A DNA stretch of 64,000 bases, taken from assembly GCF_050920415.1 (NCBI RefSeq), contig NZ_CP169309.1; one strand, written 5' to 3'. Each line of letters begins with the position of its first letter. Position 1 is the stretch's first letter. The position numbers and the translations under genes were made by a program. The stretch comes from Escherichia coli. Its GTDB lineage: Bacteria > Pseudomonadota > Gammaproteobacteria > Enterobacterales > Enterobacteriaceae. Under the pieces are notes generated by a model. The model saw only the letters and a program-made list of their open reading frames with translations, was not told the origin of the DNA and searched no databases. Shown here in pieces: positions 47,753 through 59,017 of this stretch.

Positions 47753-47805
47753 GATTAAGATCACCACGCGTTCACAAGGTGGTCTTAATCTGTTTATCTC
47801 TTTTT
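47753..47805 (+). terminator. Terminator after rihA
   Basis: 13-bp stem gattaagatcacc/ggtggtcttaatc plus T-rich tail. Confidence 0.6.
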
Positions 47806-47824
47806 CTTTCAAGATATAAATGCA

Positions 47825-49495
47825 ATGGATAATGCAGAACTCGCCATTGGTATCGATCTCGGCACTACCAATAGTTTAATTGCCGTCTGGAAAGACGGTG
47901 CCGCGCAATTAATTCCAAATAAGTTCGGTGAATATTTAACACCATCCATAATTAGCATGGATGAAAATAATCATATTTTAGTCGGAAAACCCGCTGTATC
48001 ACGGCGCACTTCGCATCCGGATAAAACGGCAGCGTTATTTAAACGTGCAATGGGCAGTAATACCAACTGGCGGTTAGGCAGCGACACATTTAACGCACCA
48101 GAACTGTCCTCTTTAGTATTACGCTCATTAAAAGAAGATGCCGAAGAATTTCTGCAACGTCCGATTAAAGATGTGGTGATCTCCGTTCCGGCTTATTTCA
48201 GCGATGAACAACGCAAGCATACCCGTTTAGCAGCGGAGTTAGCCGGGTTAAATGCGGTACGCTTAATTAATGAACCCACAGCAGCTGCGATGGCATATGG
48301 CCTGCATACGCAACAAAATACCCGCTCGCTGGTTTTTGATCTCGGTGGTGGCACGTTTGACGTCACGGTGCTCGAATACGCCACGCCGGTGATTGAAGTT
48401 CACGCCTCCGCGGGAGATAACTTTCTTGGCGGCGAAGATTTTACTCATATGCTGGTGGATGAAGTTTTAAAACGCTCCGCAGTGGCTAAAAACATGCTCA
48501 ACGAAAGTGAGCTGGCAGCCCTGTACACCAGCGTGGAAGCGGCAAAATGCAGCAATCAATTACCGCTGCAAATTAGCTGGCAGTATCAGGAAGAAACGCG
48601 TGAGTGCGAATTTTACGAGAACGAACTGGAAGATTTGTGGTTGCCGCTGCTCAATCGCTTGCGAGTGCCGATTGAACAGGCGTTGCGCGATGCACGTCTG
48701 AAGCCAAGTCAAATCGACAGTCTGGTGCTGGTTGGCGGCGCATCACAAATGCCGCTGGTGCAGCGAATCGCCGTGCGTCTGTTTGGCAAATTACCGTATC
48801 AAAGTTACGACCCGAGTACTATTGTCGCGCTGGGAGCAGCAATCCAGGCCGCCTGCCGCTTACGCAGCGAAGACATTGAAGAAGTGATCCTCACCGATAT
48901 TTGCCCCTACTCCTTAGGTGTTGAAGTTAACCGCCAGGGCGTTTCCGGCATTTTCTCACCGATTATTGAACGAAACACCACTGTACCGGTGTCGCGTGTA
49001 GAAACTTACTCGACCATGCACCCGGAACAGGATTCAATTACGGTTAACGTCTATCAGGGAGAAAACCACAAAGTTAAAAATAACATTCTGGTAGAATCCT
49101 TCGATGTGCCGTTGAAGAAAACCGGGGCTTATCAGTCGATTGATATTCGCTTTAGTTATGATATCAACGGGTTGCTTGAAGTTGACGTGCTTCTGGAAGA
49201 CGGCAGCGTTAAGTCCAGAGTCATTAACCACAGTCCTGTAACATTGAGCGCACAGCAGATTGAAGAGAGTCGGACGCGGTTATCCGCATTGAAAATTTAT
49301 CCGCGCGATATGCTCATCAACCGCACCTTTAAGGCCAAACTGGAAGAGTTGTGGGCGCGGGCGCTGGGTGACGAGCGAGAAGAGATCGGCCGGGTGATCA
49401 CCGATTTTGATGCGGCGTTGCAGTCAAACGATATGGCCCGCGTCGATGAAGTTCGGCGACGGGCGAGCGATTATTTAGCCATTGAGATCCCATAA
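47825..49495 (+). CDS. hscC: Hsp70-family chaperone HscC
   Basis: IGIDLGTTNS, DLGGGTFD Hsp70 signatures; 556 aa (shorter than DnaK). Confidence 0.9.
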   Translation: MDNAELAIGIDLGTTNSLIAVWKDGAAQLIPNKFGEYLTPSIISMDENNHILVGKPAVSRRTSHPDKTAALFKRAMGSNTNWRLGSDTFNAPELSSLVLRSLKEDAEEFLQRPIKDVVISVPAYFSDEQRKHTRLAAELAGLNAVRLINEPTAAAMAYGLHTQQNTRSLVFDLGGGTFDVTVLEYATPVIEVHASAGDNFLGGEDFTHMLVDEVLKRSAVAKNMLNESELAALYTSVEAAKCSNQLPLQISWQYQEETRECEFYENELEDLWLPLLNRLRVPIEQALRDARLKPSQIDSLVLVGGASQMPLVQRIAVRLFGKLPYQSYDPSTIVALGAAIQAACRLRSEDIEEVILTDICPYSLGVEVNRQGVSGIFSPIIERNTTVPVSRVETYSTMHPEQDSITVNVYQGENHKVKNNILVESFDVPLKKTGAYQSIDIRFSYDINGLLEVDVLLEDGSVKSRVINHSPVTLSAQQIEESRTRLSALKIYPRDMLINRTFKAKLEELWARALGDEREEIGRVITDFDAALQSNDMARVDEVRRRASDYLAIEIP

Positions 49496-49503
49496 ACACG
49501 GCT

Positions 49504-49532
49504 GCCGGATGCGGCGTAAACGCTGCATCCGG
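49504..49532. repeat. REP-like hairpin / bidirectional terminator between hscC and djlC
   Basis: gccggatgc ... gcatccggc perfect 9-bp stem. Confidence 0.6.
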
Positions 49533-49554
49533 CATCGGCGCAAAAAACACATCC

Positions 49555-51006
49555 TCAGCTAAACAACATCGCGATTTTTCCGAGAGCATAGCCTATCACC
49601 AGCACCGTTAAGCTGATTTTGATAATGCTGGTAATGCTCTGTGGTTTTTCATCCTCATCATTTTTTTCTTCGTGGTTTTCAGGTGTTGGCTCATCGACAT
49701 CTTCATCCTCCGGCTCGAGTTTCACTTTCGTCAACAGCATCCGCGTGATAATGGCCTCTAATGGATGAGCATCTCCACCTTCCAGCCTTGTATTAAGACG
49801 GGCCAGCATCTCTTGTTTCGGGAACGCTTCCAGCACAACCTGTTCCGCTACCCGATACAAATCCAGTAACGGTGAATCTTGTTCTGTCTCGCTACCGACT
49901 CTCGATTTCCACCATGCCCATGCTTTGCGTTTGAAGAATAACGACTCAATAAACGATTGACCTAACGGCGATAATTTTCCGCTATGTAAAATTTCCGCCC
50001 ATAACAGCCTCGTCCGGGCGCTCTCACCAGGAACATATTTTAGCGGCTTACCTTGCGCATCAACCATACTTCGCGCTTCGATAACCATCACTAACAGCGC
50101 GAAGTAATCCGGGCAATGTTGCGCACTCCACTGCAGTAATAAATTATCGGCTTGTGTAGATGGATAACTTTCCCAGTAACCACAGAGATCGGCAAGCATG
50201 CTTTCACCCTCGCCGCAGTACAACTGTTGCGCACACTGGTAATATCGGGCATCTTCACTTTCTGGTTCTTCCGTTTGCCACTGTTGCGCTACAGAAATGA
50301 GTTCCGCCATACCTGTTTGCACCGAGCTATACCAGCGCAACAATTTGCGATGCAACTTCGCATCATCAGGAATGAACCACGGACCTTCCATTGCCATAAA
50401 CGCAGTGACATAGTCAGGATGGTAACGGCAGCAGCGTTCCAGCGCGAAGTAATACTCAACAGTCTGGTTCTGCAACGCGACGGGATATTCCAGAAGGCTA
50501 AGGAAATCGAAACAATCACCAGCCTGAATGGCCTCAAGAAAAGCCTCCCTTTCTTCCTCATCCATTCCTTCGCTGTCATTAAACGAATGCCAGTTCAAAC
50601 GCTCTGCCAGCAAAGAAGCACAATTTAATGAAAGATATCGCGCTTCTATAGCGACTGCACACAGCGGCCAGCGTAATTGATCGACATCCTCCATGTTCCA
50701 GGTATTTAATTGCTGAATAAATTTCTGCCAGGCGGAGGGCTGAAAACGATCACTTTCAGAATCCAGTAATGCCCTGAATGCACGTAGTATTTCATGTTCA
50801 GCGGCGGCATCTTTTTCTTCATCATCTGCTTCCTCGACAGGATTTACCGCCAGTCGCAGCGCCTCTTCATAGGCCTGGCGTAATGCTTTAAACCCCTGCG
50901 GATCGGTTTCGGGATGACACAACGGTAAGCGAGCAAGATAAGCCTGGCGGATAATTTCTATTTGCGTCGTGCTTTCAATTTCGAGGATTTGCCAACATGT
51001 TTTCAT
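49555..51006 (-). CDS. djlC: J-domain co-chaperone DjlC (C-terminal membrane anchor)
   Basis: N-terminal J-like domain ...[33 protein letters not shown]; C-terminal hydrophobic tail; 4-nt overlap with the ybeU stop. Confidence 0.85.
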
Positions 51007-51710
51007 AGGTCGCTTACATCCTTAAGCGTTACCGGGCATTCAGGCTGGACAGTTAATGGCTGCCAGGGAAGCGTGGCATAGAAACGGTCGCTTCCCGCTG
51101 CCAGCTCTTCGAACATCCGACTCCCGGCGCTATCGTATTTGTACAGGGTTAGCGCCTCGCGTAGCGAAGCGTTGTCTTCGCACTGAGAAGATTGCCAGTA
51201 GAGACGCCCTAACGAATAGGCGGAAAAATAGTGCATCCAGCTGTGATAGTAATGGTGTGCTCGTATATAGACACGCGATTGCAGCCATAAACTCTCGTCT
51301 TCCGTCAGCCACTTGTTGAGCACACCAACCCGTGATAAAAAACTCATCCGCACATAATCCCAGGCTTTGATTCCCCCTTCCCCACAACACATAGCGGTTT
51401 GGGTAACGAATTGGGTATAAATCAACCCTCTCTCCGAGCCGCCAGCAATTAATGCTTTCCACTCTTCAGGGGAAGAGCGATGCCATGTCAGATATAAGCC
51501 AGCTAAATCATTGGCATGACCATCATCGGTCATCTGATAAATAGTCTGAATTAAATCATCACGATTATTTATTCCCCAGGATGATGAGAGATCGAATTCT
51601 TTTATCCCGGTATACATTTTTGGCGAGTCATGCGCTGGCTTGCAACCCTGATTAAGTATTTCCATGGGTGCAGAAAGCGCAAAAAGAAGATATTGTTCTT
51701 CCTTATTCAT
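51003..51710 (-). CDS. ybeU: YbeU (DUF1266 family)
   Basis: 235 aa; paralog of YbeR (shared [22 protein letters not shown] motifs). Confidence 0.85.
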
Positions 51711-51810
51711 TTGTTAATAATCCCTTAAGTGCATTAACTGACTACTTTTTTATTATCGATGAGTATAAACTTGACGTTTTCAAAATAAAAGAAAATAGAA
51801 GTATTCAAGC

Positions 51811-52365
51811 ATGAATAAAAAATTAATGTATATATTCGCAATATTTATAGTTGCGGCAATTACCTGTATTAGCCAACCCAAGAAAACGACCCTGCGCGAT
51901 AAAGCTATGGCGAATTATGTCTTTGATTATTTAAGCTCACCGGGCAGTCTTCCGTTTACCACGGCAGCAACAGAGCTTTCCGCCATTCATGGTCACTCAA
52001 CGTCGCAATATAGACTTGGCGAATTTTATCTTCATGGTAGCGATGGTAAGCCTCTGGATTATACAAAGGCGAGATACTGGTATGAGCAATCAGCGGAACA
52101 GGAAAATCCACGCGCGCAAAGTCAACTGGGATGGATCTACCTGAAAGGTTTGGGAGTCAATCCCGATACCCGTAAAGCAATTCTCTGGTATAAGGAAGCA
52201 GCTGAACAAGGGCATGTTCATGCACAATACACGTTGGGTTTGATCTACAGAAACGGCACGGGCATTAGCACCAACAATTATGAAGCTCGCAAATGGTTAG
52301 AACTGGCGGCAGAGCAACATTATAAAAATGCGGAAAGATTACTTGCAGAGCTTCCCGCACATTAA
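51811..52365 (+). CDS. ybeT: YbeT, Sel1-repeat protein with N-terminal hydrophobic segment
   Basis: 184 aa; repeats of A.YNLG..Y..G.GV.QD..KA..WY.KAAEQG type. Confidence 0.85.
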
Positions 52366-52374
52366 CGTCGACTG

Positions 52375-53802
52375 TCACCCGAACAGATGGAGTATTTTCC
52401 CTATCAAACCGGCAAAGATAAAAATGTAGAAAATAATTTTGATGACGCCCAGGCAGCCCGGCCCACCATCGTCAACGAGCATCGACTGCGGTTGCGGCTC
52501 CGGTTCGACGGTTTGCTTCTCGGTAAAATTTGCCGCCTGAATTAATAATCGACGAATCATTAATGCTTCCAGTGGACAACGATCTTCTGCATCAAGGCGG
52601 CTGACGATCGGCATTAATGATTCTTCTGTCGGTTGGCTGGCCTGAACTAATTGTTTAGCAACTAAATATAATGGCCATAAGGGATGTTCTGTATCACGCG
52701 TGAGTGAGATCCGCGGCTTACGTCCTTTGTGCAAAACCATCTCGACCAGAGAACGCCCCAGCGCAGAGAGTTTTTCATCACTGAGTATTTCGTATAAATG
52801 AAAACGCGTACGAGCGCTGTCACCAGGGACATAAAGTAGCGGTTTTCCCTGATCGTTAACCAGATCACGCGCTTCAATCATCATCACCACTAACGGGTAA
52901 TAATCGACCCGATGCTGACGGCACCATTGCAACATTAAAGCATCCGCCTGGGTGGAGGGATACTCGCGCCAGAAGTCACAAAGTTCTGCCAGCAGGCTTT
53001 CGCCTTCTCCACAATAGACGCGTTGCGCGTATTCATAATAACGCGCATCTTCATTATCAGGTTCAGCTACCCGCCACGACCGGGCGTAATCCAGAAGTTC
53101 GGGGATATCCAGACGGCTTGTGCTATACCAGCGGAGTAAATTTCTGTGCAAATTTGCATCATCGGGGATAATCACTGCGCGATGTTGCGCTAAATACAAT
53201 GTCAGCCATTCTGGATGCGATGACCAAATCCGCGCGAACATTTGGTAAAAATCAATGGTGTCATTTTGTACGGCAACGGGCAGATGCAGAATGGTCTGGA
53301 AGTTAAAAACATTCCCCTTCGCAATGGCATATAAAAAGGATTCCAGTTCTTCTTCGTCTATTTCCCCGACGTTTTCCTCCTGCAACCACCGCAATCTTTC
53401 TGCTAATAACACCACGCACTCGAAGGATAAATGGGCAGTGTTCATGGCTATTGTGCACAGCGACCAGCGTAATTCATCAATATCTTCCATCGAGCAATAA
53501 TTTAATTGCTGAATGAATCGCTGCCAGGCAGAGGGCAGAAAACGTTCGCTATCAGAGGCGAGTAACGCACGAAAGGCGAGCAGAATTTCATGTTCTGCAA
53601 CTTCATGTTCTTCTGGTTGCCAAACAGATTTAGCAGGCGACTGCGCAATCCGTAGCGCGTCCTCATACGCCTGACGAAGTTGTTTAAAACCCTGCGGATC
53701 GGTTTCTGGATGAAAGGACGGTAACAGCGCCAGATAAGCGCGGCGGATAATATCGACGTCAGTCGTTTCCTCTATTTCGAGAATATTCCAGCAATTTTTC
53801 AT
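52375..53802 (-). CDS. djlB: J-domain co-chaperone DjlB (C-terminal membrane anchor)
   Basis: Paralog of DjlC: [39 protein letters not shown]...; C-terminal hydrophobic tail; 4-nt overlap with the ybeR stop. Confidence 0.85.
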
Positions 53803-54506
53803 AGGTCGCTCATATCATTAAGCGTTTCCGGACATGTGGGGTAGTCAGCCAGTGGTTGCCAGGGTAAGGTCGCGTAATATGCATCGTCACTGGCAATTAA
53901 TTGATAAAACATATCATTGCCGGAATCGTCGTATTCTTTACGTGCCAATGTTTCCCGCAATAACGGTAAATTGTCATCATCAGGAGACTGCCAGTATTGC
54001 CGGCCAAAGGTATAACCGGCAAAATACTGCCGCCAGCTGGTATAATAACGTAGCACCCGCAGGTGAAGACGCGATTGGATCCACAGGCTTTCTTCTTCGC
54101 TGAGCCAGTTATTAAGTACGCCCATCCGGCTTAAAAAACCCATACGGACATAATCCCAGGCTTTTATACCGCCTTCGCCACAACATTCGGCAGTGCTGGC
54201 GACAAACTGCGCATAAGCCTGACCTTGCTCATTTAGTTCAGCAAGATAGTCACGCCATTCACATGGAGAATAACGAAACCAGCGGTGATAAAAACCAGCC
54301 AACCGCGCAGCATGACCGTTATCCATCATTCGATGAATTGTCCGCAACAGGTCTTCACGGTCATCAATTCCCCATGAGGAAGAAAGGTCAAAAAAGCGTG
54401 TACCTAAATACATTTTGGGGGATGAATGCGAAGGTAAACAGCATTCATTGCGTATTTCCATCGGAGTGGAAAGTGCAAACAATATTTTTTGCGACTCCAT
54501 GTCCAT
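53799..54506 (-). CDS. ybeR: YbeR (DUF1266 family)
   Basis: 235 aa; paralog of YbeU. Confidence 0.85.
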
Positions 54507-54663
54507 ATAATTTATCCTTAAACATTTATTTAATGAATGTAAACTACATTGCGAGACTCAGTTATTTATACTTTTCTGACGCAACATAATACGCATAAAA
54601 TAAGGCTTACGCAAAAATGGAATACATAAAAATATAATATGTTTTATCTACAACCATAAGGAA

Positions 54664-55647
54664 ATGATAATGATTTTTACGTCAAGTTGCTGCGATAATT
54701 TATCAATAGATGAGATTATCGAACGTGCTGAAAAAGGCGATTGCGAGGCTCAATATATTGTTGGGTTTTATTATAATCGCGATAGCGCAATTGACTCTCC
54801 GGACGACGAAAAGGCCTTTTACTGGCTGAAGCTGGCCGCTGAGCAAGGTCATTGTGAAGCACAATATTCCTTAGGGCAAAAGTATACCGAGGATAAAAGC
54901 CGTCATAAAGATAATGAGCAAGCCATCTTTTGGCTGAAAAAAGCAGCCCTACAAGGACATACTTTCGCTTCCAACGCCCTTGGCTGGATACTGGATCGTG
55001 GAGAAGACCCCAACTATAAAGAAGCGGTTGTCTGGTATCAGATAGCCGCGGAGAGCGGAATGTCTTATGCGCAAAATAATCTTGGGTGGATGTACAGAAA
55101 TGGCAACGGAGTCACACAAGATTATGCGCTGGCATTTTTCTGGTACAAACAAGCTGCATTGCAAGGCCATAGTTACGCACAAGACAATCTGGCCGATCTT
55201 TATGAAGACGGTAAAGGTGTTGCTCAAAACAAGACACTCGCCGCATTCTGGTATTTGAAAAGCGCACAGCAGGGTAATCGGCATGCCCAGTTTCAAATTG
55301 CATGGGATTATAACGCTGGCGAAGGGGTGGACCAGGACTATAAGCAAGCGATGTACTGGTATCTGAAGGCTGCCGCTCAGGAAAGCGTCGGCGCTTACGT
55401 TAACATCGGCTATATGTATAAACACGGTCAAAGCGTTGAGAAGGATTATCAGGCCGCCTTTGAATGGTTTACGAAAGCCGCTGAATGCGATAATGCCACT
55501 GCCTGGTATAACCTTGCCATTATGTATCATTACGGAGAAGGAAGACCTGTCGATCTCCGACAGGCTCTCGATCTGTATCGTAAAGCTCAGTCATCCGGTA
55601 CCAGGGATGTCAGTCAAAAAATCCGTGAGATTGAAGATTTACTGTAG
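54664..55647 (+). CDS. ybeQ: YbeQ, Sel1-repeat protein (about 8 repeats)
   Basis: 327 aa; tandem Sel1/TPR-like repeats, no signal peptide. Confidence 0.85.
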   Translation: MIMIFTSSCCDNLSIDEIIERAEKGDCEAQYIVGFYYNRDSAIDSPDDEKAFYWLKLAAEQGHCEAQYSLGQKYTEDKSRHKDNEQAIFWLKKAALQGHTFASNALGWILDRGEDPNYKEAVVWYQIAAESGMSYAQNNLGWMYRNGNGVTQDYALAFFWYKQAALQGHSYAQDNLADLYEDGKGVAQNKTLAAFWYLKSAQQGNRHAQFQIAWDYNAGEGVDQDYKQAMYWYLKAAAQESVGAYVNIGYMYKHGQSVEKDYQAAFEWFTKAAECDNATAWYNLAIMYHYGEGRPVDLRQALDLYRKAQSSGTRDVSQKIREIEDLL

Positions 55648-55716
55648 AGATAAAAACAAGGGCCGGGGAATTTTATTCGGCCCATATTCTCTTTATTGCT
55701 GTTTGAAATCGGACCA

Positions 55717-56199: not shown

Positions 56200-56434
56200 C
56201 GTTTCATCTCCCGGGTCGTTAACTGACTATAATAATAGACGTTCTTTGTTCCTTGCTTTGCTATTACGCCCACAAACTCTGTAAATTAATGTATGAATAA
56301 TCCGGGCATCATTTCAACGTCGAGTGCGCGAAAGGCTGTTTTGACGCGGACGTTTGGGCTATGCTATGCGGATCTGAAAAACCACCTCTAACGCTACTTT
56401 TGTAGCCGTATTGAAAACAGGACCACTGGCTGCC

Positions 56435-59017
56435 ATGCAAGAGCAATACCGCCCGGAAGAGATAGAATCCAAAGTACAGCTTCATTGGGATGAGAAGCGC
56501 ACATTTGAAGTAACAGAAGACGAGAGCAAAGAGAAGTATTACTGCCTGTCTATGCTTCCCTATCCTTCTGGTCGACTACACATGGGCCACGTACGTAACT
56601 ACACCATCGGTGACGTGATCGCCCGTTACCAGCGCATGCTGGGCAAAAACGTTCTGCAGCCAATCGGCTGGGACGCGTTTGGTCTGCCTGCGGAAGGCGC
56701 AGCGGTGAAAAATAACACCGCGCCAGCACCGTGGACGTACGACAACATCGCGTACATGAAAAACCAGCTCAAAATGCTGGGCTTTGGTTATGACTGGAGC
56801 CGCGAGCTGGCAACCTGTACGCCGGAATATTACCGTTGGGAACAGAAATTCTTCACCGAGCTGTATAAAAAAGGCCTGGTATATAAGAAGACTTCTGCGG
56901 TCAACTGGTGCCCGAACGACCAGACCGTACTGGCGAACGAACAGGTTATCGACGGCTGCTGCTGGCGCTGCGATACCAAAGTTGAGCGTAAAGAGATCCC
57001 GCAGTGGTTTATCAAAATCACCGCTTACGCTGACGAGCTGCTCAACGATCTGGATAAACTGGATCACTGGCCAGACACCGTTAAAACCATGCAGCGTAAC
57101 TGGATCGGTCGTTCCGAAGGAGTGGAAATCACCTTCAACGTTAACGACTATGACAACACGCTGACCGTTTACACTACCCGCCCGGACACCTTTATGGGTT
57201 GTACCTACCTGGCGGTAGCGGCAGGTCATCCGCTGGCACAGAAAGCGGCGGAAAATAATCCTGAACTGGCCGCCTTTATTGACGAATGCCGTAACACCAA
57301 AGTTGCCGAAGCTGAAATGGCGACGATGGAGAAAAAAGGCGTCGATACTGGCTTTAAAGCGGTTCACCCATTAACGGGCGAAGAAATTCCCGTTTGGGCA
57401 GCAAACTTCGTATTGATGGAATACGGCACGGGCGCAGTTATGGCGGTTCCGGGTCACGACCAGCGCGACTACGAGTTTGCCTCTAAATACGGCCTGAATA
57501 TCAAACCGGTTATCCTGGCAGCTGACGGTTCTGAGCCAGATCTTTCTCAGCAAGCCCTGACTGAAAAAGGCGTGCTGTTCAACTCTGGCGAGTTCAACGG
57601 TCTTGACCATGAAGCGGCCTTCAACGCCATCGCCGATAAACTGACTGCGATGGGCGTTGGCGAGCGTAAAGTGAACTACCGCCTGCGCGACTGGGGTGTT
57701 TCCCGTCAACGTTACTGGGGCGCGCCGATTCCGATGGTGACGCTGGAAGACGGTACTGTAATGCCGACCCCGGACGACCAACTGCCGGTGATCCTGCCGG
57801 AAGATGTGGTGATGGACGGCATTACCAGCCCAATCAAAGCTGATCCTGAGTGGGCGAAAACCACCGTTAACGGTATGCCTGCGCTGCGTGAAACCGATAC
57901 TTTCGACACCTTTATGGAGTCCTCCTGGTACTATGCGCGCTACACTTGCCCTGAGTACAAAGAAGGTATGCTGGATTCCGAAGCGGCCAACTACTGGCTG
58001 CCGGTGGATATCTACATTGGTGGTATCGAACACGCCATTATGCACCTGCTCTACTTCCGCTTCTTCCATAAACTGATGCGTGATGCAGGCATGGTGAACT
58101 CTGACGAACCAGCAAAACAGTTGCTGTGTCAGGGTATGGTGCTGGCGGATGCCTTCTACTATGTTGGCGAAAACGGCGAGCGTAACTGGGTTTCCCCAGT
58201 TGATGCTATCGTTGAACGTGACGAGAAAGGCCGTATCGTGAAAGCGAAAGACTCGGCAGGCCATGAACTGGTTTATACCGGCATGAGCAAAATGTCCAAG
58301 TCGAAGAACAACGGTATCGACCCTCAGGTGATGGTTGAACGTTACGGCGCGGACACCGTTCGTCTGTTTATGATGTTTGCTTCTCCGGCGGATATGACTC
58401 TCGAATGGCAGGAGTCTGGCGTGGAAGGGGCTAACCGCTTCCTGAAACGTGTCTGGAAACTGGTTTACGAGCACACTGCAAAAGGTGATGTTGCAGCACT
58501 GAATGTCGACGCGTTGACTGAAGATCAGAAAGCACTGCGTCGCGATGTTCATAAAACTATCGCTAAAGTGACCGATGATATCGGCCGTCGTCAGACCTTC
58601 AACACCGCGATTGCGGCAATTATGGAGCTGATGAACAAACTGGCGAAAGCACCGACCGATGGCGAGCAGGATCGCGCCCTGATGCAGGAAGCGCTGCTGG
58701 CGGTAGTCCGTATGCTTAACCCGTTCACCCCGCACATCTGCTTCACGCTGTGGCAGGAACTGAAAGGCGAAGGCGATATCGACAACGCGCCGTGGCCGGT
58801 TGCTGACGAAAAAGCGATGGTGGAAGACTCCACCCTGGTGGTGGTGCAGGTTAACGGTAAAGTCCGTGCCAAAATCACTGTTCCGGTGGACGCAACGGAA
58901 GAACAGGTTCGCGAACGTGCTGGCCAGGAACATCTGGTAGCAAAATATCTTGATGGCGTTACCGTGCGTAAAGTGATTTACGTACCGGGTAAACTCCTCA
59001 ATCTGGTCGTTGGCTAA
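56435..59017 (+). CDS. leuS: Leucyl-tRNA synthetase
   Basis: [21 protein letters not shown]...; HMGH and KMSKS motifs; internal ATG chosen over the ORF-track start. Confidence 0.95.

What the first reader, a model, noticed from the sequence alone, without database searches (positions are those of the whole stretch)
49555..53802. Both J-proteins carry HPE instead of the canonical HPD tripeptide
Seen in sequence: the J-like domains of DjlC (…[13 protein letters not shown]…) and DjlB (…[13 protein letters not shown]…) have Glu where canonical J-domains have the invariant Asp of the HPD motif, which contacts the Hsp70 ATPase domain. Both end in a hydrophobic C-terminal tail (tail-anchored topology). 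Inference: the HPE variant may tune specificity toward HscC rather than DnaK, or alter ATPase stimulation.
Basis: partly seen in the sequence, partly recalled or inferred. Interest (0 to 1): 0.4.

Follow-up and report, generated by a model that had tools for sequence, protein, structure and literature searches.

The report
Known HPE J-domains of HscC co-chaperones
The two E. coli membrane-anchored co-chaperones DjlC and DjlB do carry His-Pro-Glu instead of the usual His-Pro-Asp in their J-domains, but this is a published hallmark of the partners of the specialised Hsp70 HscC, so the finding is correct and ordinary.

Summary
The window carries the E. coli hscC-djlC-ybeU-ybeT-djlB-ybeR-ybeQ locus. 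DjlC and DjlB both read H31-P32-E33, and each has one hydrophobic helix at its extreme C-terminus.

A family profile aligns HPE onto the HPD of solved J-domains (E=1e-7). The AlphaFold model places HPE in the helix II-III loop, and its structure matches are J-domains. The only HPD in either protein (DjlC 196-198) lies outside the J-domain and is not conserved.

HPE is not drift. Of 212 family members, 199 have HPE and none HPD, within a fixed short loop, HPE-x-DP-x-GF. In 9 of 11 distant relatives sampled (Pseudomonas, Marinobacter, Yersinia, Paenibacillus, Lachnospiraceae, metagenomes), the gene lies within 4 kb of an HscC-type Hsp70.

The Hsp70 residues that bind the Asp (DnaK R167, Q378) are unchanged in HscC. 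So Glu alone is unlikely to set specificity, and many other interface positions differ.

The HPE variant, its link to HscC, DjlC's specific stimulation of HscC and its tail-anchoring are all published (PMC13254874, PMC10410713, PMC8215388).

Verdict: already known, low interest. The conserved HscC-JDP-DUF1266-TPR/Sel1 gene module is the only under-described aspect.

The parts
47825..49495 (+). hscC, the specialised 556-aa Hsp70 that is the cognate partner of the two J-proteins
   Evidence: Pfam HSP70 E=8.8e-117. Annotated hscC in the identical E. coli record. It keeps DnaK R167 (R146) and Q378 (Q341), and lacks DnaK 208-211.
49555..51006 (-). djlC (ybeV), a 483-aa tail-anchored J-domain protein. 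Layout: J-domain aa 1-54, disordered acidic linker, all-alpha TPR-like domain aa 69-430, acidic linker, TM helix.
50845..51006 (-). DjlC J-domain (aa 1-54). HPE = aa 31-33 = nt 50908-50916.
49561..49635 (-). DjlC C-terminal transmembrane tail anchor (aa 458-482)
   Evidence: Kyte-Doolittle 19-residue windows above 1.6 occur only from aa 457 onward. AF2 helix 458-482. Membrane insertion was shown experimentally by Peschke 2018, as cited in PMC8215388.
51003..51710 (-). ybeU, a DUF1266 protein. Its stop overlaps the djlC start (ATGA), suggesting translational coupling.
   Evidence: Pfam DUF1266 E=2.2e-45. Overlap sequence CTATGAAAA.
51811..52365 (+). ybeT, a Sel1-repeat protein with a hydrophobic N-terminus
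   Evidence: Pfam Sel1 E=1.8e-33. Annotation.
52375..53802 (-). djlB (ybeS), a 475-aa paralogue of DjlC (50% identity) with the same architecture
53641..53802 (-). DjlB J-domain (aa 1-54). HPE = aa 31-33 = nt 53704-53712.
52378..52467 (-). DjlB C-terminal hydrophobic tail anchor (aa 446-475)
   Evidence: Kyte-Doolittle windows up to 2.37, found only at aa 446-475
53799..54506 (-). ybeR, a DUF1266 paralogue of ybeU (58% identity). Its stop overlaps the djlB start (ATGA).
54664..55647 (+). ybeQ, a Sel1-repeat protein (8 repeats), divergent from ybeR. The RefSeq annotation starts two codons later, at 54670.
   Evidence: Pfam Sel1 E=2e-64. Annotation.

Best explanation
DjlC and DjlB are tail-anchored inner-membrane class C J-domain proteins. 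They serve as the dedicated co-chaperones of the neighbouring specialised Hsp70, HscC.

Their N-terminal 54 residues form a genuine but divergent J-domain. The helix II-III loop reads HPE-T-DP-Q-GF instead of HPD-x-N-(6-8 more residues). Glu33 takes the place of Asp35 of DnaJ. It presumably contacts the conserved Arg146 and Gln341 of HscC (DnaK R167 and Q378) and so triggers ATP hydrolysis and recruits HscC to the membrane.

HPE plus the shortened loop is the ancestral, selectively maintained signature of a whole clade of J-domains. This clade has the PF27158 helical domain, often with TPR repeats, DUF805 or a tail anchor. It is genetically coupled to HscC-type Hsp70s, and usually to a DUF1266 protein, from Gammaproteobacteria to Bacillota. 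Partner specificity is most likely spread over many interface positions rather than residing in the Glu alone.

Shown here: sequence, alignment, fold, conservation, synteny. From the literature: ATPase stimulation, HscC specificity, membrane insertion. Inferred: the Glu-Arg/Gln contact and how specificity is distributed.
For: - HPE aligns on HPD, and the fold is a J-domain.
- Other residues that matter in DnaJ's J-domain are retained in the family: Y23 (DnaJ Y25) in 57/57, F39 (F47) in 54/57, R43 (K51) in 57/57, R/K20 (R22) in 55/57.
- H31, P32 and E33 are invariant in a 58-sequence full-length alignment reaching down to 16% identity.
- Of 212 family members, 199 have HPE and 0 have HPD, although Glu GAA to Asp GAT/GAC is a single-base change.
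- 9 of 11 distant members lie within 4 kb of a 560-567-aa Hsp70, or a cut fragment of one. These are 42-59% identical to HscC and 33-37% to DnaK or HscA. Their taxa are listed.
- R167 and Q378 equivalents are invariant in HscC-type proteins.
- Literature: only DjlC stimulates HscC, and DjlC is tail-anchored (PMC8215388). HPE is 'the only replacement tolerated', found in DjlB/C, which interact with HscC (PMC13254874). The DjlC J-domain cannot replace DnaJ's (PMC1906734).
Against: - The Pfam DnaJ scores of the two window proteins are below the gathering threshold.
- No complex structure or contact map could be computed here, so the Glu-Arg146/Gln341 contact is inferred by homology with 5NRO as described in PMC8215388.
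- DjlB has never been assayed; its activity is assumed from similarity.
- Two of 11 sampled relatives showed no adjacent Hsp70. One sits on a contig with only 2 kb upstream; the other has a cut, unidentified upstream gene.
- The synteny sample is small and was not drawn at random.
Confidence: 0.75

Rival explanations
1. Glu33 itself is the key specificity switch. The longer side chain fits HscC and misfits DnaK, insulating the HscC system from DnaK/DnaJ.
For: - HPE and HscC-type Hsp70s co-occur across phyla, and HPD never occurs in this clade.
- HscC-type-specific changes lie close to the J-site. L392T is found in 8/8, D481N in 7/8, D477S/T in 8/8 and G380A in 8/8. D481N would leave Arg146 less neutralised.
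- DnaJ, CbpA and HscB (all HPD) do not stimulate HscC (PMC8215388).
Against: - The direct partners of D35 (R167, Q378) are invariant in HscC.
- Many other interface residues differ at the same time: K26L and R27A in DjlB/C, a loop 6 residues shorter, and the deleted D211 loop.
- About 1,200 eukaryotic J-domains have HPE without any HscC (PMC10410713).
- No D/E swap data were found.
Confidence: 0.2
2. HPE is a functionally neutral conservative substitution. It was fixed once in the ancestor of the clade and carried along without selection for Glu over Asp.
For: Asp and Glu are chemically similar. HPE occurs sporadically (about 1%) in otherwise ordinary J-domain families, with HPD/HPE differing between orthologues (PMC10410713).
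Against: No reversion to HPD occurs among 212 sequences spanning Gammaproteobacteria and Bacillota, although it needs only a one-base change. By contrast, His varies (8 NPE, 3 RPD, 1 KPE, 1 PPE). This pattern indicates purifying selection on Glu.
Confidence: 0.08
3. The HPE domains are degenerate, inactive J-like domains, comparable to Tim16/Pam16 or 'type IV' J-proteins. They would bind the Hsp70 but not stimulate it.
Against: DjlC is reported to stimulate HscC ATPase (Kluck 2002, via PMC8215388 and PMC13254874). His, Pro and the Y25, F47 and K51 equivalents are conserved. Tight operon linkage with an Hsp70 argues for a working pair.
Confidence: 0.03

Closest known systems
E. coli K-12 DjlC (YbeV/Hsc56) and DjlB (YbeS), co-chaperones of HscC (Hsc62)
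   Same: These are the same genes. DjlC is 95% identical to the main E. coli cluster. Synteny (hscC-djlC-ybeU-ybeT-djlB-ybeR-ybeQ), the HPE motif and the tail anchor are all the same.
   Different: Only allelic divergence. The 7.9-kb locus is 90-95% identical to most E. coli genomes, against 95-99% for the adjacent leuS.
Canonical J-domain of DnaJ, CbpA and DNAJA1 (Pfam PF00226; PDB 5NRO chain B, 2LO1)
   Same: Helix II-loop-helix III hairpin. His-Pro of the motif. Equivalents of Y25, F47, K51, A53, Y54 and E55. Rmsd 2.0 A over 56 columns to 5nro_B.
   Different: Glu replaces Asp. Asp replaces Asn two residues later (HPE-x-D-P against HPD-x-N-P). Five rather than 11 residues lie between the motif and the helix III Phe when compared with DnaJ. 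No canonical helix IV is followed by a G/F region. The K26 and R27 equivalents are not basic in DjlB/C.
HscB-HscA, the other dedicated J-protein/Hsp70 pair of E. coli
   Same: A specialised Hsp70 with its own exclusive class C J-protein encoded nearby. The Hsp70 lacks the DnaK 208-211 loop.
   Different: HscB keeps HPD and a long loop. It is soluble and delivers IscU. HscA keeps L392, and has Q at position 477 and D at 481.
Tim16/Pam16-type J-like domains
   Different: Pam16 lacks the HPD-type motif altogether and does not stimulate its Hsp70. DjlC keeps H-P-acidic and is reported to be active.

Membership tests
J-domain (Pfam PF00226 DnaJ) | Sequence match to the family model at or above the curated threshold | tested here: not met
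   DjlC scores 19.0 bits and DjlB 21.2 bits against a cut-off of 27.8. Distant relatives P0138 and P0153 pass, at 29.0 and 29.9 bits. A profile of the family matched 68 PDB sequences at E<=1, and the 60 listed are J-domain proteins, with best E=1e-7.
J-domain (Pfam PF00226 DnaJ) | Antiparallel helix II / helix III hairpin with the motif in the connecting loop | tested here: met
J-domain (Pfam PF00226 DnaJ) | Invariant His-Pro-Asp tripeptide | tested here: not met
   The tripeptide is His-Pro-Glu in both proteins and in 199 of 212 relatives, none of which has HPD. This is a conservative acidic replacement.
J-domain (Pfam PF00226 DnaJ) | Stimulates ATP hydrolysis by a partner Hsp70 | not testable with these tools
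   Reported for DjlC with HscC (Kluck 2002, as summarised in PMC8215388 and PMC13254874). Never assayed for DjlB.
DjlB/DjlC family (HscC co-chaperones; Pfam PF27158 DjlB_C_2nd) | Orthology to E. coli DjlC/DjlB and possession of the family-specific helical domain | tested here: met
   95% identity to the E. coli DjlC cluster. Precomputed PF27158 is present on nearly all homologues. The window is identical to a record annotated djlC/djlB. PF27158 is absent from the local Pfam copy, so it was not scored directly.
DjlB/DjlC family (HscC co-chaperones; Pfam PF27158 DjlB_C_2nd) | Genomic linkage to an HscC-type Hsp70 | tested here: met
   hscC is convergent with djlC, 59 nt away. 9 of 11 distant relatives are within 4 kb of an HscC-type Hsp70.
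Tail-anchored membrane proteins | A single transmembrane segment within the last ~30 residues and no N-terminal signal sequence | tested here: met
   The only hydrophobic windows are at DjlC 457-483 and DjlB 446-475. AF2 gives helix 458-482 preceded by a disordered acidic linker. The N-terminus is the J-domain. Insertion of DjlC was shown by Peschke 2018, cited in PMC8215388.
Inactive J-like / 'type IV' J-proteins | Loss of the functional tripeptide together with loss of Hsp70 ATPase stimulation | tested here: not met
   His and Pro are retained and the acidic residue is conserved. The Y25, F47 and K51 equivalents are conserved. The literature reports activity.
Known anti-phage defence systems (PADLOC) | Match to a defence-system protein model | tested here: not met
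   HscC, DjlB, DjlC, YbeU and YbeR have no hits. The Sel1 proteins give only weak repeat-type hits to the N-terminus of PtuA.

The most novel reading that the evidence does not exclude
HPE, the Asp two residues later and the shortened loop may have co-evolved with HscC-type-specific changes around the J-binding site: linker L392T, and the SBD-beta loop FDIDADGIL changed to F(S/T)YDINGLL, including D481N and D477S/T. Together they would form an orthogonal J-domain/Hsp70 'code'. In addition, the conserved module of HscC + HPE J-protein + translationally coupled DUF1266 protein + Sel1/TPR protein, duplicated in E. coli and in Paenibacillus, may be a four-part membrane-associated machine with a dedicated, still unknown client.
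Probability: 0.3. Interest if true: 0.45.

Novelty: already known. Interest (0 to 1): 0.15.

Why it matters
The HPD tripeptide is the most conserved feature of J-proteins, and D-to-N changes abolish function. A naturally selected Glu variant tied to one Hsp70 subfamily is therefore a useful natural experiment on how J-domain/Hsp70 pairs are kept separate. That point has already been made in the chaperone literature for exactly these two proteins.

This analysis adds modest detail. The Glu is under purifying selection across phyla. It always comes with a fixed short loop. It travels with HscC-type Hsp70s and DUF1266 proteins. The Hsp70 residues that bind the acidic side chain have not changed.

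Tried and rejected
- Single-sequence phmmer of the DjlC N-terminus against PDB sequences found nothing. A family profile was needed.
- PADLOC and NCBIfam gave no informative hits for DjlB, DjlC, YbeU or YbeR, so a defence-system reading was dropped.
- The primary paper (Kluck 2002, PMID 12183460) is not held. Barriot 2020 was not among the papers returned by my search. Their content is cited only through reviews.
- Literature searches for HPD-to-HPE mutagenesis found nothing beyond the 2026 review.
- The promoter and terminator consensus scan gave no more sites than shuffled sequence and was not used.
- A second, canonical HPD was considered. The only one (DjlC 196-198) is outside the J-domain and not conserved.
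- Modelling an HscC-J-domain complex was considered and dropped. The structure tool returns no coordinates or contacts, so the interface could not be read.
- The large genome-collection scan was not run. The 11 cheaper context look-ups already gave a clear answer.
Full report
**1. What is in the window.**
The interval 47.8-55.7 kb is the E. coli chromosomal locus rihA | hscC (47825-49495, +) | djlC (49555-51006, -) | ybeU (51003-51710, -) | ybeT (51811-52365, +) | djlB (52375-53802, -) | ybeR (53799-54506, -) | ybeQ (54664-55647, +) | ybeL | leuS. The window is 100% identical to E. coli MFDS1022581, whose RefSeq annotation gives these gene names.

Pfam confirms HscC as an Hsp70 (E=8.8e-117), YbeU and YbeR as DUF1266, and YbeT and YbeQ as Sel1-repeat proteins. 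The finding's coordinates run exactly from the djlC stop to the djlB start.

**2. The observation.**
DjlC reads ...LPLC-H31-P32-E33-TDPQGF... and DjlB reads ...LPSF-H31-P32-E33-TDPQGF.... The codons are CAT CCC GAA at 50908-50916 and CAT CCA GAA at 53704-53712.

Several independent lines show this tripeptide occupies the HPD position:
- MAFFT with the J-domains of E. coli DnaJ, CbpA, DjlA and HscB, taken from K-12, aligns HPE on HPD.
- The Pfam DnaJ model matches residues 4-47 to profile positions 2-51.
- A profile built from 57 diverse family N-termini (alignment A1) matched 68 sequences among 177,635 PDB sequences, and the 60 listed are J-domain proteins. The best E is 1e-7, with 'hPE' aligned on the HPD of DNAJA1, dnj-12 and E. 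coli DnaJ, including 5NRO chain B.

The window proteins score below Pfam's gathering threshold (19.0 and 21.2 bits against 27.8). They are divergent J-domains, mainly because the stretch between the motif and the helix III Phe is 5 residues instead of the 11 in DnaJ.

The finding's refuting condition is not met. The only HPD in either protein is DjlC 196-198, inside the helical middle domain. DjlB has HPE there and most homologues have neither.

The tail-anchor claim also holds. The only hydrophobic windows are DjlC 457-483 and DjlB 446-475, and 94 of 101 full-length homologues share the feature. AF2 models a helix at 458-482 after a disordered acidic linker.

**3. Is the Glu meaningful?**
Among 120 close homologues from Escherichia, Salmonella, Citrobacter, Enterobacter and Pseudocitrobacter, all 113 with an intact N-terminus have HPE in the context HPE[TSNI]DPQGF.

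An exhaustive HMMER search of 1.84 billion representatives found 1,618 relatives at E<=1e-3. The listed ones include many 400-1,240-aa proteins. They share the same N-terminal domain fused to the PF27158 helical domain plus DUF805 membrane domains or long TPR arrays.

Across all 212 retrieved sequences with the loop signature, the counts are 199 HPE, 8 NPE, 3 RPD, 1 KPE, 1 PPE and 0 HPD. In a full-length alignment reaching down to 16% identity, H31, P32 and E33 are invariant.

Glu (GAA) to Asp (GAT/GAC) is a single-base change. The complete absence of HPD at this depth argues for purifying selection on Glu, not for a frozen accident.

The family also fixes Asp at +2 (53/57), Pro at +3 (56/57) and Gly-Phe at the start of helix III. 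It retains equivalents of DnaJ Y25 (57/57), F47 (54/57), K51 (R, 57/57) and R22 (R/K, 55/57). In DjlB and DjlC the K26 and R27 equivalents are Leu and Ala. In many other members the K26 equivalent is Arg.

**4. Link to HscC.**
I looked up the genomic context of 11 distant family members. Nine lie within 4 kb of a 560-567-aa Hsp70 gene, or of a fragment cut by the contig end:
- P0136, Pseudomonas
- P0184, Marinobacter
- P0147, Yersinia
- P0258, Paenibacillus
- P0255, Lachnospiraceae
- P0231, metagenomic
- P0222, metagenomic
- P0241, metagenomic
- P0210, from GenBank assembly GCA_900101385.1 (organism not looked up)

All of these Hsp70s are HscC-type. They are 42-59% identical to the window's HscC and 32-37% to E. 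coli DnaK or HscA.

The two exceptions are weak negatives. One contig has only 2 kb upstream of the gene. In the other, the upstream gene is cut and unidentified.

A DUF1266 gene is adjacent in at least five of these loci, usually overlapping the J-protein gene by 1-4 nt. This matches ybeU/djlC and ybeR/djlB here, which share an ATGA overlap. Paenibacillus, like E. coli, has two J-protein/DUF1266 pairs beside one HscC.

So the HPE-type J-domain is a clade-wide hallmark of HscC partners. All four non-HscC J-proteins of E. coli have HPD.

**5. Does the Glu explain specificity?**
According to PMC8215388, in the DnaK-DnaJ structure 5NRO, D35 hydrogen-bonds to DnaK R167 and Q378, H33 to the L391 carbonyl, and P34 packs on P419.

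In HscC these are R146, Q341, L356 and P388. All are conserved here, and R167, Q378 and P419 are invariant in all eight HscC-type sequences compared, while L391 is Met in one of them. There is therefore no obvious compensating change at the direct partners.

What differs in HscC-type proteins near the J-site is:
- deletion of the 208-211 loop, which removes D211 (also deleted in HscA and noted in PMC8215388)
- D477 to S/T (8/8)
- I478Y and A480I
- D481N (7/8)
- linker L392T (8/8)
- G380A and K421S

The J-domain's own changes (section 3) add to this list. Specificity is more plausibly distributed over many positions than carried by the Glu alone. Whether D481N or L392T co-vary functionally with the Glu is an untested idea. 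The tools return no coordinates, so I could not examine an interface model.

**6. Mechanism proposed.**
Shown or reported:
- DjlC is inserted into the inner membrane by its C-terminal helix (Peschke 2018, via PMC8215388).
- DjlC stimulates HscC ATPase, whereas DnaJ, CbpA and HscB do not (Kluck 2002, via PMC8215388).
- The DjlC J-domain cannot replace DnaJ's in vivo (PMC1906734).
- Deletion of hscC, or of djlB and djlC together, causes Cd2+ sensitivity (PMC8215388).

Inferred:
- The J-domain docks on HscC-ATP as DnaJ does on DnaK. E33 takes the role of D35 towards R146 and Q341 and triggers hydrolysis.
- The translationally coupled DUF1266 protein is a likely stoichiometric partner.

**7. Comparison with what is known.**
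The observation and the interpretation are both published.
[quoted passage not shown] - A 2026 preprint treats HscC-DjlC as one of three known E. coli Hsp70/J-domain classes.

The proteins are the E. coli genes themselves, not new members. What I did not find discussed in the searchable literature is the conserved HscC/J-protein/DUF1266/TPR-Sel1 module. Only one paper mentions DUF1266.

**8. Verdict.**
- Observation: confirmed.
- Interpretation: partly supported. The clade-level association with HscC holds, but a causal role for the Glu is untested and not favoured as the sole determinant.
- Novelty: already known.
- Interest: low (0.15).

Noticed in passing
window 49555-55647: The locus contains a tandem duplication of a three-gene module: J-protein, DUF1266 and Sel1-repeat protein (djlC-ybeU-ybeT and djlB-ybeR-ybeQ). 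The paralogues are 50% (DjlC/DjlB) and 58% (YbeU/YbeR) identical. In both copies the DUF1266 stop overlaps the J-protein start (ATGA).
   Followed up: partly
L006, L007, L012, L013/L014, L015 (Pseudomonas, Marinobacter, Paenibacillus, Yersinia, and assembly GCA_900101385.1, organism not looked up): DUF1266 genes are adjacent to HPE-type J-protein genes next to HscC-type Hsp70s across phyla, usually overlapping them. Paenibacillus also has two J-protein/DUF1266 pairs. This suggests a conserved multi-component HscC system that is scarcely described; only one paper in the library mentions DUF1266.
   Followed up: partly
window 47800-55700 versus 56411-59017: The hscC-ybeQ locus is more variable than its surroundings. 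4,448 of 5,426 complete E. coli genomes have a match and 3,689 have at least 80% of it, mostly at 90-95% identity. The adjacent leuS is in 5,424 genomes, all at 95% identity or higher.
   Followed up: partly
P0255/L010, P0241/L017, P0210/L015 and other family members: Some family members have lost the His of the motif (8 NPE, 3 RPD, 1 KPE, 1 PPE) yet still sit beside HscC-type Hsp70 genes. In canonical J-domains, replacing the His abolishes function. All three Arg variants carry Asp in the third position.
   Followed up: partly
window 49504-49533: The 59-nt gap between the convergent hscC and djlC genes holds an imperfect palindrome, GCCGGATGCGGCGTAAACGCTGCATCCGGC. It looks like a REP element, a call made from memory of the REP consensus and not tested.
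   Followed up: no
window 51003-51020 and 53799-53816 (C-termini of YbeU and YbeR): Both DUF1266 proteins end in an acidic ...D(V/M)SDL tail. Their neighbours encode Sel1/TPR-like repeat proteins, and the J-proteins have a TPR-like middle domain. A possible EEVD-like tail/TPR interaction is pure speculation.
   Followed up: no
window 51811-51890 (YbeT N-terminus): YbeT starts with a hydrophobic segment ending ...AAITC, which could be a signal or lipoprotein-like sequence. It might therefore act on the periplasmic side, unlike YbeQ, which has no such segment.
   Followed up: no
DjlC aa 196-198, window 50413-50421 (-): An HPD tripeptide (RYHPDY) occurs in the middle helical domain of DjlC. It is not in a J-domain context, reads HPE in DjlB, and is absent from most homologues.
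   Followed up: yes
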